Source: a virus
Lineage: Duplodnaviria > Heunggongvirae > Uroviricota > Caudoviricetes
Virus record (IMG/VR): IMGVR_UViG_2690316345_000015
Span: 1 to 4,139 of that record
DNA: 4,139 nt
Strand: one strand, 5' to 3'
The stretch's first letter is position 1, and each line of letters starts with the position of its first letter. The notes beneath the pieces are model-generated. The model had not been told where the DNA came from. It did no database searches and saw only the letters and a program-made list of their open reading frames with translations. This document shows positions 1 to 4,139 of this stretch, one piece after another. A program made the position numbers and the translations under genes.

Positions 1-71
1 GTGCTTTTGCCGTTACGCACCACCCCGTCAGTAGCTGAACAGGAGGGACAGCTGATAGAAACAGAAGCCAC
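1..71 (-). CDS. insA: IS1 InsA, N-terminal fragment (partial; runs off window start)
   Basis: On the minus strand a GTG at 71..69 is followed by GCT TCT GTT TCT ATC AGC TGT CCC TCC TGT (ASVSISCPSC...), the known InsA N-terminus with its zinc-finger Cys residues. Confidence 0.88.
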   Translation of the reverse strand, partial: MASVSISCPSCSATDGVVRNGKS

Positions 72-126
72 TGGAGCACCTCAAAAACACCATCATACAC
101 TAAATCAGTAAGTTGGCAGCATCACC
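1..126 (-). mobile_element. IS1: IS1 insertion sequence, left-end portion (element continues beyond window start). Terminal inverted repeat IRL at 104..126; outer end at 126.
   Basis: Reverse complement of 1..126 reads GGTGATGCTGCCAACTTACTGATTTAGTGTATGATGGTGTTTTTGAGGTGCTCCAGTGGCTTCTGTTTCTATCAGCTGTCCC..., which matches the canonical IS1 left end including the 23-bp IRL as I recall it. Match is from memory, not a database search. Confidence 0.93.
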
Positions 127-195
127 CAGGAACAGAGTTAAAAAGCCGGAACCGGAATCAAATCACAGGATGACCATCTGCCAGTGGCAGGTCAT

Positions 196-221
196 AAAAA
201 AAGGCCGCGCCATGCGCAGCC
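196..221 (-). terminator. Rho-independent terminator on the minus strand: hairpin GGCTGCGC-ATG-GCGCGGCC (203..221) followed by a T7 tract (196..202)
   Basis: Minus strand reads GGCTGCGCATGGCGCGGCCTTTTTTTATGAC: an 8-bp GC-rich stem (one G-U wobble), 3-nt loop, then seven U. It is oriented to stop transcripts coming from the moron region at higher coordinates. Confidence 0.6.
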
Positions 222-407
222 AGAACTCACAAGGAAAATGATAGAAGGAAATAACATTAGTGATGTACGCATGGCGCCTCCCGCTAAGTTCTGCAATGAT
301 CAAACAGAACTCGCTACGTGTCCTTAAAACTCGATCATTTAGCCTCTCCAAGGAGGATTCACCATGCGGTTGATTTTTTAATAAACAGTAAACAAAAAAG
401 TCAAGGA

Positions 408-518
408 TTATTCATTCTGTTTTTTCATCATCGGCCACAGCAATACCACAATGCCGCAGACCAGAGCGCCATCAGTCAGTACCAACATTATCCTGCTGGT
501 GAAATCCATCATCACCAT
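408..518 (-). CDS. Hypothetical small hydrophobic protein (36 aa from ATG at 518; up to 52 aa if TTG at 566 is used): MVMMDFTSRIMLVLTDGALVCGIVVLLWPMMKKQNE
   Basis: Hand translation of the minus strand. Below the 60-aa cutoff, so absent from the ORF track. Strongly hydrophobic with a charged KKQNE tail, and lies between the membrane-protein gene and the terminator at 196..221. No convincing Shine-Dalgarno sequence, so low confidence. Confidence 0.25.
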   Translation of the reverse strand: MVMMDFTSRIMLVLTDGALVCGIVVLLWPMMKKQNE

Positions 519-651
519 CACTAAAAGCAGGATCACAACAGCAAGCAGACACAGTTTATAAAACAATGTTCAGAAAACGCATTCTGCATGCCTAAGGTTC
601 TATTCTTACGAATAGCCAACTTGCAACTTAAAATATTATTTATGCAGCCAA

Positions 652-1410
652 TTAAATTCTGGTCCTTACAATATCAACCTGAAGATTCTTATCTTGTGCT
701 GATTGATAAATGACAAACCTCTTACTACCTGCATTAAAAGAAGTAGACAAAACCAGACAATTATCATAACGAGCAAGAACATAATACCAAGCATCATTAT
801 AATTAATCATTTCATATTCTTTCTTAAACTGAGGTTTGTAATATCCTGTCAGAAATGAGAAGAGCCAGAAATATGCCACAAAAGCAACCATCACAACTTC
901 AAAAAAATGTTTTTTTATAAATGGCTTACCATAGAAGCATGATACCGATAAAAATCGCCCATAAGATCTTATCGAAATTGTAACTGCCAGCGCAATCGCT
1001 GCTGACAGTAGCAAAAGAGGTAACTGAATCTTCTGTCTCAATATAGAAAACTCAATAATTGCCGGCACAAACAATAATTCCACAGCAAAATAAAGGCGAA
1101 ATACATTTAGCTCCTGCATAGAATGTTTTCTTTTCACAGCGAAAAAGAATACAACACCAATACCCCAACCGATAAGAAATATAGCAATGACGATAACTGC
1201 AAAAAATAAACTTCTGACAACATCATCAACACCTGCACCTACAATCCACCATGGGAATCCGTAGTAAAAAGAAGTACCCCAGCCATAGAAATAAGCACTC
1301 CCCCATCCAAGGCATCCCATGTAGGCTATAAAAAGTGAAGAACTCCTGAGCAGTGCACCATCCTTCATAACCACCTCTATACAAGATGATAACATTGGCT
1401 TGAAACTCAT
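652..1410 (-). CDS. Uncharacterised polytopic inner-membrane protein (252 aa; alternative start at Met15, codon 1368..1366, preceded by GAGGTG). About 5 predicted TM helices plus a ~60-aa hydrophilic C-terminal domain. AT-rich moron downstream of Q.
   Basis: Uninterrupted 759-nt ORF in AT-rich DNA, where random ORFs of this length are improbable. Hydrophobic segments approx aa 26-46, 65-92, 105-123, 130-147 and 169-188, with positively charged loops (KRKH, RQK, KKH). Sampled 60-nt stretches give roughly 30-37% GC, against about 53% in the adjacent Q gene. No family recognised by eye. Confidence 0.8.
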   Translation of the reverse strand: MSFKPMLSSCIEVVMKDGALLRSSSLFIAYMGCLGWGSAYFYGWGTSFYYGFPWWIVGAGVDDVVRSLFFAVIVIAIFLIGWGIGVVFFFAVKRKHSMQELNVFRLYFAVELLFVPAIIEFSILRQKIQLPLLLLSAAIALAVTISIRSYGRFLSVSCFYGKPFIKKHFFEVVMVAFVAYFWLFSFLTGYYKPQFKKEYEMINYNDAWYYVLARYDNCLVLSTSFNAGSKRFVIYQSAQDKNLQVDIVRTRI

Positions 1411-1576
1411 AACAAAAGCAATTCAATGCCGTCAAGAGGTTACAGGCTAAAAAACCTCTATTACATTGCAGTCAGCATGTTTACTACACAAATACAATTC
1501 AGAGCATAAAAACTACTCGGCGGCAGGTTATTGAGACTCATCAGTGACAGGTAAAAAATGCCCATTATTGGTGTCA

Positions 1577-1605
1577 AACTTACCCAAAGTTATTCAAAAA
1601 GTCAA
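1577..1605 (-). promoter_or_regulatory. Lambdoid late promoter pR' with Q-utilisation (qut) region: -35 TTGACT (1605..1600), 17-bp spacer, -10 TAAGTT (1582..1577), then a -10-like pause element AATAAT (1569..1564)
   Basis: Minus strand reads TTGACTTTTTGAATAACTTTGGGTAAGTTTGACACCAATAATGGG, which aligns closely with lambda pR' as I recall it (TTGACTTATTGAATAAAATTGGGTAAATTTGACTCAACGATGGG). It lies about 45 bp downstream of the Q stop codon, as in lambda. Confidence 0.75.
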
Positions 1606-1647
1606 TATTATGCCGTTAATATGTTGCCATCCGTGGCAATCATGGCG

Positions 1648-2271
1648 CTAACGTGTGATCGCATTCAAAATGTTGTCTGCGATTGACTCTTCCTTGTGGC
1701 ATTGCACAACCAGAGCGTCATACAGTGGCTTAACAGTGCGTGACCAGGTGGGTTGGGTAAGGTTTGGGATTAGCATCGTTACAGCGCGATATGCGGCACT
1801 TGCTGGCATCCTTGAATAGCCGACGCCTTTGCATCTTCCGCACTCTTTCTCGACAACTCTCCCCCCCTGCTCTGTTTTTGCTATATCAACCGCACGGCCT
1901 GTACCGTGGCAATCTCTGCATCTTGCGCCCGGCGTCGCGGCACTACGGCAATAATCCGCATAAGCAAATATTGCGAGCACTTGCAGTACCTTTGCCTTAG
2001 TATTTCCTTCGAGCTTTGCCACACCACGGTATCTCCCCGATACCTTGTGTGCAAATTGCATCAGATAGTTGATAGCCTTTTGTTTGTCGTTCTGGCTGAG
2101 TTCGTGCTTACCACAGAATGCAGCCATTCCGAATCCGGCTTGTGATTGCGCCATCCCCATAGCAGCCATCACATCAGTACCGGAAAGAGAGTCAGAAGCC
2201 GTGGCCGGTGGTGAGTCGCTCATCATCGGGCTTTTTGGCGAATGAAATTTAGCTACGCTTTCGAGTCTCAT
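1648..2271 (-). CDS. Q: Late-gene antiterminator Q (207 aa), lambda Q type
   Basis: Translation [21 protein letters not shown]...[12 protein letters not shown]...[14 protein letters not shown]... is near-identical to lambda Q as I recall it, including the Cys4 zinc-binding motif. Its start ATG overlaps the upstream phosphatase stop (ATGA at 2271..2268). Confidence 0.95.
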
Positions 2272-3541: not shown

Positions 3542-3594
3542 CGTCTTCTTCCTCGTACATTGAGCTATTCGGATCGCTCATCAGTTCTGTGCAG

Positions 3595-4038
3595 TTATGG
3601 TCTGCCATGGTTTTCATGAAAACCCAGTTCTTTTTCTGCCCTCTTCCTTTCTGCAATAGCGTCAATGATGCTAGCAAATATTCCAAGATATTTGGTGCGC
3701 CCATCTACGCATATATTCGCAATCCACTTACATCTCTCTTTATTGAAATATACTCCAGTCACTCCTGACGAATTGGTTATTTTTCTCTTTTGGTTCTGTG
3801 CATTCTGTTGGTGTGTAACCAATCGAAGATTAGATAGCCTATTATCTGACCTTACTCCATTTATATGATCAATTTTATACCCTAATGGAATCTCACCATT
3901 ATTTATCATCCATATAACGTGGTGAGCATAAGTAATTACACCATCGATAGTTAACATCCTATAACCATCACTCCTAATGTAACCAGCAACACTGCCAACC
4001 TTAACATTATTAGAAGGAGACACTGGTAATGACTCCAA
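3595..4038 (-). CDS. HNH homing-type endonuclease with C-terminal AP2-like DNA-binding domain. The 5' end is disrupted or fused: ORF positions 4025..4038 are IS1 terminal-repeat sequence, so the native N-terminus is probably truncated. Possible GTG start at 4023.
   Basis: HNH_3-like motif (...YAHHVIWMINNGEIPLGYKIDHINGVRSDNRLSNLRLVTHQQN...) followed by an AP2-like segment (SSGVTGVYFNKERCKWIANICVDGRTKYLGIF...). The TTG start in the ORF track lies inside the IS1 IRR (GGTAATGACTCCAA...). Confidence 0.7.
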   Translation of the reverse strand: MESLPVSPSNNVKVGSVAGYIRSDGYRMLTIDGVITYAHHVIWMINNGEIPLGYKIDHINGVRSDNRLSNLRLVTHQQNAQNQKRKITNSSGVTGVYFNKERCKWIANICVDGRTKYLGIFASIIDAIAERKRAEKELGFHENHGRP

Positions 4039-4139
4039 CTTATTGATAGTGTTTTATGTTCAGATAATGCCCGATGACTTTGTCATGCAGCTCCACCGAT
4101 TTTGAGAACGACAGCGACTTCCGTCCCAGCCGTGCCAGG
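4025..4139 (-). mobile_element. IS1: IS1 insertion sequence, right-end portion (element continues beyond window end). Terminal inverted repeat IRR at 4025..4047.
   Basis: 4025..4139 is the reverse complement of the canonical IS1 right end as I recall it (...CCTGGCACGGCTGGGACGGAAGTCGCTGTCGTTCTCAAAATCGGTGGAGCTGCATGACAAAGTCATCGGGCATTATCTGAACATAAAACACTATCAATAAGTTGGAGTCATTACC). Confidence 0.93.
4040..4139 (-). CDS. insB: IS1 InsB (InsAB' transposase), C-terminal fragment (partial; runs off window end)
   Basis: Minus-strand translation ...[32 protein letters not shown] with stop TAA at 4042..4040, the known InsB C-terminus. Confidence 0.88.

What the first reader, a model, noticed from the sequence alone, without database searches (positions are those of the whole stretch)
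1411..1647. pR' late promoter and qut present, but no recognisable tR' terminator before the moron gene
The -35/-10/pause-element architecture of lambda pR' is conserved at 1605..1564. In lambda the pR' transcript terminates at tR' after about 194 nt unless Q modifies RNA polymerase. Here the ~160-nt leader between the predicted start (around 1570) and the membrane-protein ATG (1410) shows no GC hairpin followed by a U-tract. The only notable structure is a 7-bp inverted repeat, AGAGGTT-N11-AACCTCT, at 1435..1459 with no U-run. If no terminator exists, the membrane protein would be expressed constitutively from pR' in the lysogen; if a cryptic or Rho-dependent terminator exists, it would be a Q-dependent late gene, as stx is.
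Basis: partly seen in the sequence, partly recalled or inferred. Interest (0 to 1): 0.5.

Follow-up and report, generated by a model that had tools for sequence, protein, structure and literature searches.

The report
Lambda-type late promoter lacking proximal terminator
A phage-lambda-type late promoter here lacks the stop signal that normally follows it, so transcription probably runs into two membrane-protein genes and a known regulatory small RNA (PasD) without phage induction, an arrangement found in about one in eight complete E. coli genomes.

Summary
On the minus strand, a lambda Q gene (97% identical to lambda Q) is followed by a lambda-type pR'/qut: -35 at 1605..1600, -10 at 1582..1577, pause element at 1569..1564. 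No conventional intrinsic terminator lies in the ~200-nt leader.

That terminator is kept in all 41 copies of this cassette behind a Q82-type gene, at full strength in 40. It is weak in all 69 copies behind lambda-type Q. Other lambda-type pR' modules have a terminator within 200 nt in 73 of 78 cases; cassette-linked ones in 0 of 41.

The first strong terminator (221..203) belongs to the published Hfq-dependent sRNA PasD (367..196; 170/173 identical to PasD1). The "moron" is a PF27470/STM1630-family membrane protein, probably starting at 1368 rather than 1410, plus a DUF3927 protein.

Published EPEC RNA-seq shows the cassette transcribed in uninduced cells while Q and holin are nearly silent.

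Best reading: a Q-independent pR' transcript of ~1.4 kb covers the cassette, and Q is needed only beyond PasD. A cassette-internal promoter is not excluded. This is a new variant of a known system, of moderate interest.

The parts
1648..2271 (-). Lambda-type antiterminator Q gene (207 aa).
   Evidence: Pfam Antiterm PF03589, E = 5e-56. 201/207 identical to lambda Q.
1564..1605 (-). Lambda-type late promoter pR' with qut: -35 TTGACT 1605..1600; Q-binding spacer 1599..1583; -10 TAAGTT 1582..1577; -35-like TTGACA 1577..1572; pause-inducing AATAAT 1569..1564. The predicted +1 is at about 1572..1569.
   Evidence: Alignment with lambda. BLAST to annotated qut/pR' regions of lambdoid phages. The roles of the elements come from knowledge of lambda pR' and were not tested here.
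1508..1529 (-). Weak counterpart of the phage 82/434-type late terminator: AACCTGCCGCCGAGTAGTTTTT.
   Evidence: It is homologous to AAACCCGCTGCCGAGTGGG+T7-9 of phage 434. Folding gives -2.2 kcal/mol against -12.1. No hairpin-plus-U-tract structure forms.
1435..1459 (-). It is probably fortuitous.
   Evidence: -7.8 kcal/mol, z = -1.9. It is not conserved in the majority variant or in phage 434.
1411..1468 (-). Marginal terminator candidate: an AU-rich hairpin at 1468..1424, followed after 2 nt by the interrupted U-tract UUGCUUUUGUU at 1421..1411.
   Evidence: Found only by the relaxed scan (-12.5 kcal/mol). It is not called by the standard scan. The outer stem is broken in phage 434.
1386..1435 (-). 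Two overlapping candidate cassette-internal promoters: TTGACG-N17-TTATGA (1435..1407) and TTGTTA-N18-TGtTATCAT (1415..1386).
   Evidence: Promoter-like hit, but the number of hits is no higher than in shuffles. The TTGAC..TTATG block is partly conserved in the ETEC plasmid and C. rodentium homologs. Function is unproven.
652..1368 (-). PF27470 ('TfpB') / STM1630-family membrane protein, 238 aa. The open frame extends up to 1410.
   Evidence: Homologs carry PF27470 and are nearly all 237-238 aa. PHROG 1521. Shine-Dalgarno GAGGTGG at 1377..1371. The AF2 model has low confidence: N-terminal helices and a C-terminal beta domain.
408..566 (-). DUF3927 small membrane protein ('TciB-like'), 52 aa.
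   Evidence: Pfam PF13064, E = 1.4e-14. PHROG 1470. Annotated TciB in phage 434.
375..404 (-). Candidate PasD promoter: TTGACT at 404..399 and TAAAAA at 380..375, 8 nt upstream of the PasD 5' end.
   Evidence: Read from the sequence against the published PasD1 5' end. This is an inference.
196..367 (-). PasD sRNA gene (Hfq-dependent, STnc100-related). Its intrinsic terminator has its stem at 221..203 and a U7 tract at 202..196. This is the first strong terminator downstream of pR'.
   Evidence: 170/173 identical to PasD1, and the published Northern probe is present at 211..234. Rfam STnc100 scores 35.2 bits, below the gathering score of 47. The terminator folds at -15.2 kcal/mol.
1..126 (.). 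IS1 end (contig boundary).
   Evidence: Exact match to the IS1 5' end in reverse complement. Homology to E. coli prophages starts at 127.
4025..4139 (.). IS1 end (contig boundary). It truncates the HNH endonuclease ORF at 3595..4024.
   Evidence: 100% match to sequences annotated as IS1A family transposase. HNH_3 Pfam hit. The intact HNH gene is present in L228.

Best explanation
The window is an IS1-bounded piece of a lambdoid prophage. It carries a lambda-type Q gene, its late promoter pR' and the Q-loading site (qut).

In lambda, and in most phages with this promoter type, a compact intrinsic terminator 50-190 nt downstream stops all Q-free transcription. Here that position holds only a weak counterpart (1529..1508) of the phage 82/434-type terminator, with a 4-bp stem and five U residues.

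RNA polymerase starting at about 1570 without Q is therefore expected to cross the ~200-nt AT-rich leader. It would then transcribe the PF27470/STM1630-family membrane-protein gene and the DUF3927 gene, and stop at the PasD sRNA terminator (221..203). The resulting RNA would be ~1.4 kb and would take the place of lambda's 194-nt 6S RNA.

The cassette would thus be expressed in the lysogen at a modest level. In an intact prophage, Q would be needed only to pass the PasD terminator and a second terminator in front of the holin gene.

Shown here: the anatomy, the absence of a conventional terminator, its strict association with the lambda-type module, the identity of PasD, and cassette expression in uninduced EPEC.

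Inferred: that the transcripts start at pR' and actually read through.
For: 1. pR'/qut and Q are lambda-type.

2. No conventional terminator lies between pR' and 222, according to two independent scans with working positive controls. Leader folding is no better than shuffles.

3. Among 110 loci carrying the cassette leader with enough upstream sequence to classify, all 69 behind lambda-type Q have the weak site. It folds at -2.2 kcal/mol in the 66 that were computed. Of the 41 behind Q82-type, 40 keep a -12.1 kcal/mol hairpin with T7-9 and one keeps -6.2. The standard scan calls the terminator in phage 434 but none in the window-type leader.

4. Lambda-type pR' modules elsewhere have a terminator within 200 nt in 73 of 78 cases. 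Cassette-linked ones do so in 0 of 41.

5. There is no rut-like composition.

6. In uninduced EPEC E2348/69 (PMC8550237, Table S2) the PP4 values are Q 6.0, cassette ORF 147 and holin 5.4. Transcription therefore starts after Q and ends before holin, and does not come from spontaneously induced cells.

7. pR' is constitutively active in lambda and in Stx phages (PMC7547250).

8. The Salmonella ortholog STM1630 is transcribed from a promoter ~215 nt upstream of its ATG. A distal promoter with a long leader is therefore the native arrangement, and pR' occupies that position here.
Against: 1. The same cassette (96-97% identical) follows an intact terminator in phage 434 and 40 other loci. Diverged homologs lie next to sseJ, LpxR or eltAB with no Q gene. 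The gene can therefore be expressed without pR'.

2. Two candidate internal promoters exist at 1435..1386.

3. The EPEC PP4 and PP2 copies differ at only 3 positions across the ORF, so the RNA-seq cannot tell which copy is expressed.

4. ORF expression is modest (147-226) against PasD at 8,652-11,017. PasD is equally abundant from PP2, which suggests it has its own promoter.

5. The -10 here (TAAGTT) and in most relatives (GAAACT) matches the consensus less well than lambda's TAAATT, and the generic promoter scan does not call it.

6. Rho-dependent termination and the marginal structures at 1468..1411 and ~1305..1266 are not excluded.

7. No transcript ends were mapped for this locus.
Confidence: 0.55

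Rival explanations
1. The cassette is a classical self-contained moron. A promoter inside the shared leader (around 1435..1386) drives the membrane-protein genes in the lysogen, and PasD has its own promoter at 404..375. pR' contributes little without Q, whether or not a terminator is present, so the loss of the proximal terminator has no functional consequence.
For: The same cassette works behind an intact terminator in the 434-type. Q-less homologs must have their own promoters, and STM1630 has a mapped one. A promoter-like site with an extended -10 lies at 1415..1386, and the TTGAC..TTATG block is partly conserved. The cassette ends in its own strong terminator and is AT-rich, with GC 0.36 against 0.51 for Q. 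PasD1 and PasD2 are about equally abundant despite their different upstream modules.
Against: The promoter-like hits are no more frequent than in shuffled sequence (5 found, 8.0 expected). The mapped STM1630 promoter lies ~215 nt upstream, not close to the gene. The candidate -10 hexamers are poor or would leave an 11-nt 5' UTR. This reading does not explain why the weak site is strictly linked to the lambda-type module. The PP2 terminator in EPEC is itself a weakened variant (-6.2 kcal/mol), so PP2 is not a clean control.
Confidence: 0.3
2. A cryptic stop exists in the leader or the early ORF. Candidates are Rho-dependent termination of the ~200-nt untranslated AT-rich leader, and the marginal hairpin/U-tract structures at 1468..1411 or ~1305..1266. 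The cassette would then be a Q-dependent late gene, as stx is.
For: The leader is long and untranslated. Horizontally acquired AT-rich DNA is a frequent target of Rho and H-NS (general knowledge). The relaxed scan finds a hairpin at 1468..1424 followed by UUGCUUUUGUU. ORF expression in EPEC is only modest.
Against: C/G is <= 1.0 in every 78-nt window from 1600 to 200, and 0.88 over the leader. The candidate structures have weak AU-rich closing stems, are no better than shuffles (z = -0.54 and -0.75), are missed by the standard scan and are not conserved in phage 434. The cassette is transcribed in uninduced EPEC at more than 20 times the level of Q and holin.
Confidence: 0.1
3. The segment is a decaying prophage fragment. 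pR' has drifted (-10 only 3/6 to consensus), the terminator counterpart is neutral debris, and nothing here is functionally expressed in this host.
For: The fragment is cut by IS1 on both sides and lacks early and lysis genes. The -10 differs from lambda.
Against: An almost identical copy (1 mismatch in 1,573 nt) sits in an intact prophage, L228. The same module occurs in the plaque-forming phage 2B8 and in 682 of 5,426 complete E. coli genomes. All ORFs are intact. PasD and the cassette are expressed in EPEC.
Confidence: 0.05

Closest known systems
Phage lambda late control module (Q, pR', qut, tR', 6S RNA)
   Same: Q is 97% identical. The -35, Q-binding spacer, -35-like TTGACA and pause-inducing -10-like element are conserved, and the position directly after the Q gene is the same.
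   Different: There is no tR'. Homology ends ~17 nt after the start site. One extra base lies between the -10 and the pause element. The -10 is TAAGTT rather than TAAATT. The predicted Q-free transcript is ~1.4 kb and coding, instead of a 194-nt non-coding RNA.
Phage 82 / 434-type late promoter with its promoter-proximal terminator, followed by the same cassette (OL657226.1)
   Same: The leader from the terminator position onward, the PF27470 gene, the DUF3927 gene and PasD with its terminator are homologous. Identity is 96.7% over 1,385 nt.
   Different: It has a different antiterminator (Q82-like) and promoter. The terminator is intact (-12.1 to -13.3 kcal/mol, U8) 27-50 nt after the start, so there the cassette lies behind a Q-dependent gate.
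StxS sRNA of Shiga-toxin phages (Sy et al. 2020, PMC7547250)
   Same: A constitutively active pR' whose Q-free transcript ends at the first terminator and yields an abundant Hfq-binding sRNA in the lysogen.
   Different: StxS comes from a 258-nt non-coding pR'-tR' transcript. Here ~1.2 kb of coding sequence separates pR' from the sRNA. Whether PasD derives from pR' transcripts at all is untested.
PasD1/PasD2 sRNAs of EPEC E2348/69 and STnc100 (Pearl Mizrahi et al. 2021, PMC8550237; Zhu et al. 2026, bioRxiv 10.64898/2026.05.13.724894)
   Same: Window 367..196 is 170/173 identical to PasD1 and has the same neighbours (Q upstream, the DUF3927 gene directly upstream).
   Different: Those papers treat PasD as an intergenic or 3'-UTR-type sRNA. 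In the passages I read they do not discuss pR', the missing terminator, or PasD's terminator acting as the first late-operon terminator.
Classical phage morons (promoter-gene-terminator units such as lambda bor and lom or the HK97 morons; from general knowledge)
   Same: An AT-rich insert between conserved modules, present or absent among related phages, ending in its own terminator, and expressed from the prophage.
   Different: A dedicated promoter is not demonstrated. In the lambda-type version the phage's own late promoter may serve instead.

Membership tests
Lambda-type Q/pR'/qut/tR' late antitermination module | Lambda-family Q protein encoded directly upstream. | tested here: met
   PF03589, E = 5e-56. 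201/207 identical to lambda Q.
Lambda-type Q/pR'/qut/tR' late antitermination module | Sigma-70 promoter with a Q-binding element between -35 and -10. | tested here: met
   TTGACT-17-TAAGTT, with a spacer 14/17 identical to lambda. The generic promoter scan does not call it because the -10 is only 3/6 to consensus. Activity was not tested.
Lambda-type Q/pR'/qut/tR' late antitermination module | Promoter-proximal sigma-dependent pause element (-10-like sequence in the initial transcribed region). | tested here: met
   AATAAT at 1569..1564 aligns with lambda AACGAT and is followed by GGG. It lies one base further from the -10 than in lambda. Pausing itself is not testable here.
Lambda-type Q/pR'/qut/tR' late antitermination module | Intrinsic terminator (tR') shortly downstream that stops Q-free transcription. 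| tested here: not met
   None within ~1,350 nt by the standard scan. The counterpart site folds at -2.2 kcal/mol. 0 of 41 cassette-linked modules have a terminator within 200 nt, against 73 of 78 other lambda-type modules.
Lambda-type Q/pR'/qut/tR' late antitermination module | Q-dependent read-through of downstream terminators into lysis genes. | not testable with these tools
   In the intact twin L228, two terminator-like sites (7175-7193 and 7543-7571) precede the holin gene. This is consistent with Q dependence but is not a test.
PasD / STnc100 sRNA | Sequence identity to the experimentally defined PasD1/PasD2. | tested here: met
   170/173 identical to PasD1 and 165/172 to PasD2. The Northern probe is present at 211..234.
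PasD / STnc100 sRNA | 3' stem-loop plus poly-U intrinsic terminator. | tested here: met
   Stem at 221..203, 8 pairs (7 G-C), then U7. -15.2 kcal/mol, z = -2.8.
PasD / STnc100 sRNA | Rfam RF02076 (STnc100) gathering score. | tested here: not met
   35.2 bits against a gathering score of 47, E = 3.5e-5. This fits the published view that PasD is a diverged relative of STnc100. I file it as PasD, not as STnc100.
PasD / STnc100 sRNA | Hfq binding and expression. | not testable with these tools
   Shown for EPEC PasD1 and PasD2 in PMC8550237, not for this strain.
Moron (autonomous promoter-gene-terminator unit in a phage genome) | Own terminator, and a composition distinct from the neighbouring genes. 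| tested here: met
   Terminator at 221..203. GC is 0.36 for the ORF and 0.38 for the leader, against 0.51 for Q.
Moron (autonomous promoter-gene-terminator unit in a phage genome) | Own promoter. | tested here: inconclusive
   Candidates lie at 1435..1386, but promoter-like hits do not exceed the shuffle expectation. Homologs without Q must have promoters, and STM1630 has a mapped one ~215 nt upstream.
PF27470 ('TfpB') / STM1630 family | Sequence membership. | tested here: met
   All 100 homologs carry a precomputed PF27470 hit, and the closest is 97% identical. The family is absent from the local Pfam copy and gave no hit in the NCBIfam scan of the window proteins. RefSeq names a homologous ORF 'STM1630 family protein'.
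Rho-dependent terminator | C-rich, G-poor unstructured rut region of about 70-80 nt in untranslated RNA. | tested here: not met
   C/G is 0.56-1.00 across the leader in 78-nt windows. Composition is only a weak test.

The most novel reading that the evidence does not exclude
In this widespread class of lambda-Q prophages the late promoter has two roles. With the proximal terminator gone, pR' makes a ~1.4-kb bifunctional RNA in every lysogenic cell. That RNA is the mRNA for two membrane proteins, and its 3' end is released as the abundant Hfq sRNA PasD, in the way StxS is released from the pR'-tR' RNA of Stx phages. The PasD terminator has become the operative tR' that Q must overcome. The weakened -10 (GAAACT or TAAGTT instead of TAAATT) would be a compensating adjustment of the now unterminated promoter.
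Probability: 0.3. Interest if true: 0.6.

Novelty: new variant of a known kind. Interest (0 to 1): 0.45.

Why it matters
Lambda-type late promoters are the textbook case of "always on, always terminated". Here the termination step has been moved ~1.4 kb downstream, so prophage cargo genes lie inside the Q-independent transcript.

If pR' really drives them, it shows a simple way for a prophage to express conversion genes in every lysogenic cell without a dedicated promoter. It would also link the biogenesis of PasD to late-promoter activity, in parallel with StxS in Shiga-toxin phages. PasD is one of the most abundant EPEC and EHEC prophage sRNAs.

The arrangement is common: 682 of 5,426 complete E. 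coli genomes carry it, including the prototype EPEC strain. Nature also supplies a matched control, because the same cassette sits behind an intact terminator in 434-type prophages. The question is therefore directly testable with existing strains and probably with existing RNA-seq data.

Tried and rejected
1. My first terminator scan missed lambda tR' because its hairpin is longer than 45 nt and branched. I widened the scan until both controls were found.

2. The relaxed scan then produced long, weakly closed branched structures. These lie at +116 in the majority variant, and at 1521..1454, 1468..1424 and ~1305..1266 in the window. I rejected them as terminators because their closing stems are 3-5 bp and AU/GU-rich. 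Their folding is no better than shuffles, the standard scan does not call them, and one lies in translated sequence.

3. I tried to use EPEC PP4 against PP2 expression as a natural experiment. I rejected it because the two ORFs differ at only 3 positions, and PP2's terminator is itself a weakened variant.

4. I searched the RIL-seq tables for leader or intergenic entries and found none.

5. I looked for promoter conservation across 107 cassette copies, but there is too little variation to be informative.

6. I expected STnc100 next to Salmonella STM1630. There is no Rfam hit there, nor beside the C. rodentium and ETEC homologs.

7. The AlphaFold model of the membrane protein has mean pLDDT 55.8 and pTM 0.39. 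That is too poor for a fold search, so none was run.

8. Literature searches for TciB, TfpB, DUF3927 and EcOnc13 gave nothing relevant to function. PADLOC and NCBIfam gave no hits for the cassette proteins.

9. Which way the terminator changed (lost in the lambda-type, or gained in the 82-type) could not be resolved. Divergence inside the site is similar to that of the flanking leader (~15%, my own count).
Full report
WHAT THE WINDOW IS

The 4,139-bp window is the whole of a draft-assembly contig, CYCA01000112.1. It ends in IS1 sequence on both sides: 1..126 is an exact IS1 end, and 4025..4139 matches sequences annotated as IS1A.

Between the IS1 ends, all genes are on the minus strand. They are an IS1-truncated HNH endonuclease, NinG, a NinI-type phosphatase and an antiterminator Q. 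Q is 201/207 identical to lambda Q. Downstream of Q lie three more features. The first is a 238-252-aa membrane-protein ORF with no hit in the local Pfam copy. The second is a 52-aa DUF3927 protein. The third is a region that matches the Rfam sRNA family STnc100 below its gathering score, at 35.2 against 47 bits.

An almost identical copy, with 1 mismatch in 1,573 nt, lies in an intact prophage, L228. Its gene order is CII-O-P-Nin-HNH-NinG-phosphatase-Q-cassette-holin-lysozyme.

CHECK OF THE OBSERVATION

The promoter and qut are real. The minus strand reads TTGACT (1605..1600), a 17-nt spacer and TAAGTT (1582..1577). It continues with TTGACA, then AATAAT (1569..1564) followed by GGG. This aligns almost base for base with lambda from the Q stop codon to ATGGG, where homology ends. 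BLAST finds the same 133-140 nt at 92-94% identity in HK97, HK022, P22-like and other phages, several of them annotated as qut or promoter.

The leader has no conventional terminator. The standard scan finds no minus-strand site between pR' and 222. It finds none between Q and the PasD terminator in L228. In phage 434, by contrast, the same scan calls the promoter-proximal terminator.

My own RNAfold-based scan was widened until it recovered lambda tR' (-26.3 kcal/mol) and the 434 terminator (-11.1). In the window leader it gives only long, weakly closed structures. These fold no better than shuffled sequence, with z = 0.09, -0.54 and -0.75.

It is limited to this sub-variant and is broken in the majority variant and in phage 434.

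Phage 434 (OL657226.1) carries the same cassette at 96.7% identity, but behind a Q82-like antiterminator. A curated terminator is annotated exactly where the homology with the window begins. That terminator is AAACCCGCTGCCGAGTGGG followed by T8, and it folds at -13.3 kcal/mol with z = -3.5. The window has AACCTGCCGCCGAGTAGTTTTT at 1529..1508. This is recognisably homologous, but the stem is reduced to 4 bp (-2.2 kcal/mol) and three T residues are missing.

I collected 115 loci with the cassette leader, of which 110 had enough upstream sequence to classify. Only two upstream modules occur.

- All 69 lambda-Q-linked loci have the weak site.
- Of the 41 Q82-linked loci, 40 keep the -12.1 kcal/mol hairpin with T7-9, and one keeps -6.2.

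Three recombinants (L017, L063, L098) combine the lambda module and the weak site with a 434-type distal leader. The weak site therefore travels with the lambda module. I could not determine which way the change went. Divergence inside the site is about the same as in the flanking leader.

HOW UNUSUAL THIS IS FOR A LAMBDA-TYPE LATE PROMOTER

I collected further viral contigs with the lambda-type -35/Q-binding motif, which made 174 loci with that motif among everything fetched. I then looked for the first terminator with a GC-containing closing helix next to a U-tract. The run hit its time limit after 119 loci.

- Among modules not linked to the cassette, 73 of 78 have such a terminator within 200 nt. 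It lies either at about +51 (CCUGAGUUAAUAGCUCGGG then U5) or at about +184 (lambda tR').
- Among cassette-linked modules, 0 of 41 do. Their first hit is a marginal structure ~300 nt downstream, inside the coding sequence.

The -10 hexamer also differs. It is TAAATT in 77 of 78 unlinked modules, GAAACT in 36 of 41 linked ones, and TAAGTT in the window.

WHAT LIES DOWNSTREAM

The membrane protein belongs to Pfam PF27470 ("TfpB"). RefSeq names a homologous ORF "STM1630 family protein". Nearly all homologs are 237-238 aa, and a good Shine-Dalgarno sequence (GAGGTGG) precedes ATG 1368. That ATG, rather than 1410, is therefore the likely start. The function is unknown. The structure model is too poor to use.

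The STnc100-like region is the published sRNA PasD. Window 367..196 is 170/173 identical to PasD1 of EPEC E2348/69 and contains the published Northern probe at 211..234. PasD is Hfq-dependent, highly abundant and considered a relative of STnc100.

Its terminator has an 8-pair stem with 7 G-C pairs, followed by U7, and folds at -15.2 kcal/mol. It is the first strong stop after pR', about 1,375 nt from the predicted start. In L228 a second terminator-like site precedes the holin gene, so lysis-gene expression would still depend on Q.

EXPRESSION EVIDENCE

EPEC E2348/69 carries both arrangements. PP4 has lambda-type Q and the weak site, like the window. PP2 has Q82-type Q and a hairpin followed by T9.

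| Gene (uninduced culture, DESeq2 baseMean, PMC8550237 Table S2) | PP4 | PP2 |
|---|---|---|
| Q | 6.0 | 69 |
| Cassette ORF | 147 | 226 |
| DUF3927 gene | not in table | 37 |
| Holin | 5.4 | 3.5 |
| PasD (PasD1 / PasD2) | 8,652 | 11,017 |

The cassette is therefore transcribed in non-induced cells from a start located after Q, and transcription stops before the holin gene. There is a caveat. The two ORF copies differ at only 3 positions, so the split between PP4 and PP2 is unreliable and only the sum is safe. The PP2 terminator is also a weakened variant (-6.2 kcal/mol).

MECHANISM AND ITS RIVALS

pR' is constitutively active in lambda and Stx phages, and its terminated transcript can mature into an Hfq sRNA, StxS. 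The simplest reading here is that Q-free transcription from about 1570 runs through the leader, the two ORFs and PasD, and ends at 221..203.

Composition argues against a Rho site, since C/G is 1.0 or less throughout.

The main rival is a promoter inside the cassette. Diverged homologs (45-67% identity) lie next to sseJ in Salmonella, LpxR in Citrobacter rodentium and eltAB on ETEC plasmids, with no Q gene upstream. Salmonella STM1630 also has a mapped start site with its own -10 box.

That Salmonella promoter, however, lies ~215 nt upstream of the ATG. This is where pR' sits relative to the gene here, which fits the idea that the phage promoter has taken over the distal promoter's role. The candidate internal promoters at 1435..1386 are not statistically supported. 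I put read-through from pR' at 0.55, an internal promoter as the main driver at 0.30, cryptic termination at 0.10 and an inert remnant at 0.05.

NOVELTY

All the components are known: lambda Q/pR'/qut, the 82/434-type terminator, PasD, DUF3927 and the STM1630 family. The arrangement occurs in 682 of 5,426 complete E. coli genomes and in phage 2B8.

I did not find three points described in the papers I could search. The first is that this lambda-type late module lacks its proximal terminator. The second is that the site survives as a weak counterpart of the 82-type terminator. The third is that the PasD terminator is the first stop for pR' transcripts. I rate this a new variant of a known kind, of moderate interest, and directly testable.

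Noticed in passing
window 1577..1582 (-); loci: The -10 hexamer of lambda-type pR' is TAAATT in 77 of 78 modules that keep a proximal terminator. It is GAAACT in 36 of 41 terminator-less cassette-linked modules, and TAAGTT in the window. This could be a compensating weakening of an unterminated promoter, or shared ancestry, because the loci are closely related.
   Followed up: partly
window 163..351 (-): A 62-aa ORF, annotated 'putative membrane protein' in phage 434, lies entirely inside the PasD sRNA and contains its terminator. It has no hit in Pfam, PHROGs, NCBIfam or PADLOC. It is probably not a gene.
   Followed up: partly
window 375..404 (-): A possible PasD promoter (TTGACT, then TAAAAA or AAAAAT) starts immediately after the DUF3927 stop codon. 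It is correctly spaced for the published PasD1 5' end at 367. This would explain why PasD is about 50-fold more abundant than the upstream ORF.
   Followed up: no
window 1..126 and 4025..4139: Both ends are IS1 in the same orientation, and the window is a complete draft contig. The assembly therefore broke at the repeats. IS1 truncates the HNH endonuclease gene at 4024/4025 and sits ~70 nt after the PasD terminator. The fragment could be part of a composite IS1 structure.
   Followed up: partly
L116 / L117 (EPEC E2348/69 PP4 and PP2); PMC8550237 Tables S3 and S7: RIL-seq recorded 57 chimeric fragments between the prophage sRNA PasA and the 5' part of the PF27470-family mRNA (E2348C_0686, 740203-740290). 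This suggests that the cassette mRNA is itself an Hfq/sRNA target.
   Followed up: no
L221-L227: The PF27470 ('TfpB') / STM1630 family sits beside virulence genes in Q-less settings: sseJ in Salmonella, LpxR in Citrobacter rodentium, and the heat-labile enterotoxin genes eltAB on ETEC plasmids. Canals et al. 2019 cite earlier work that Salmonella STM1630 mutants are attenuated in calves and chickens. The gene is silenced by two -10 SNPs in ST313.
   Followed up: partly
L017, L063, L098: These are natural recombinants: the lambda-type Q/pR' and weak terminator site are joined to a 434-type distal leader. A recombination junction therefore lies directly after the terminator position.
   Followed up: no
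L117 (EPEC PP2) and L077: A rare variant of the Q82-type terminator (GAGTGG+T9 instead of GAGTGGG+T8) drops the hairpin from -12.1 to -6.2 kcal/mol. The prototype EPEC strain carries this weakened version.
   Followed up: partly
L115: The cassette leader was found on a 3-kb contig of a metagenome-assembled genome labelled Veillonella sp. This is most likely mis-binned E. coli prophage DNA.
   Followed up: no
window 3595..4024 (-); L228 3295..3801: An HNH_3 homing-type endonuclease gene is inserted between NinF and NinG in this prophage lineage. It is absent from the best-matching E. coli prophages, whose homology with the window stops at 3594.
   Followed up: no
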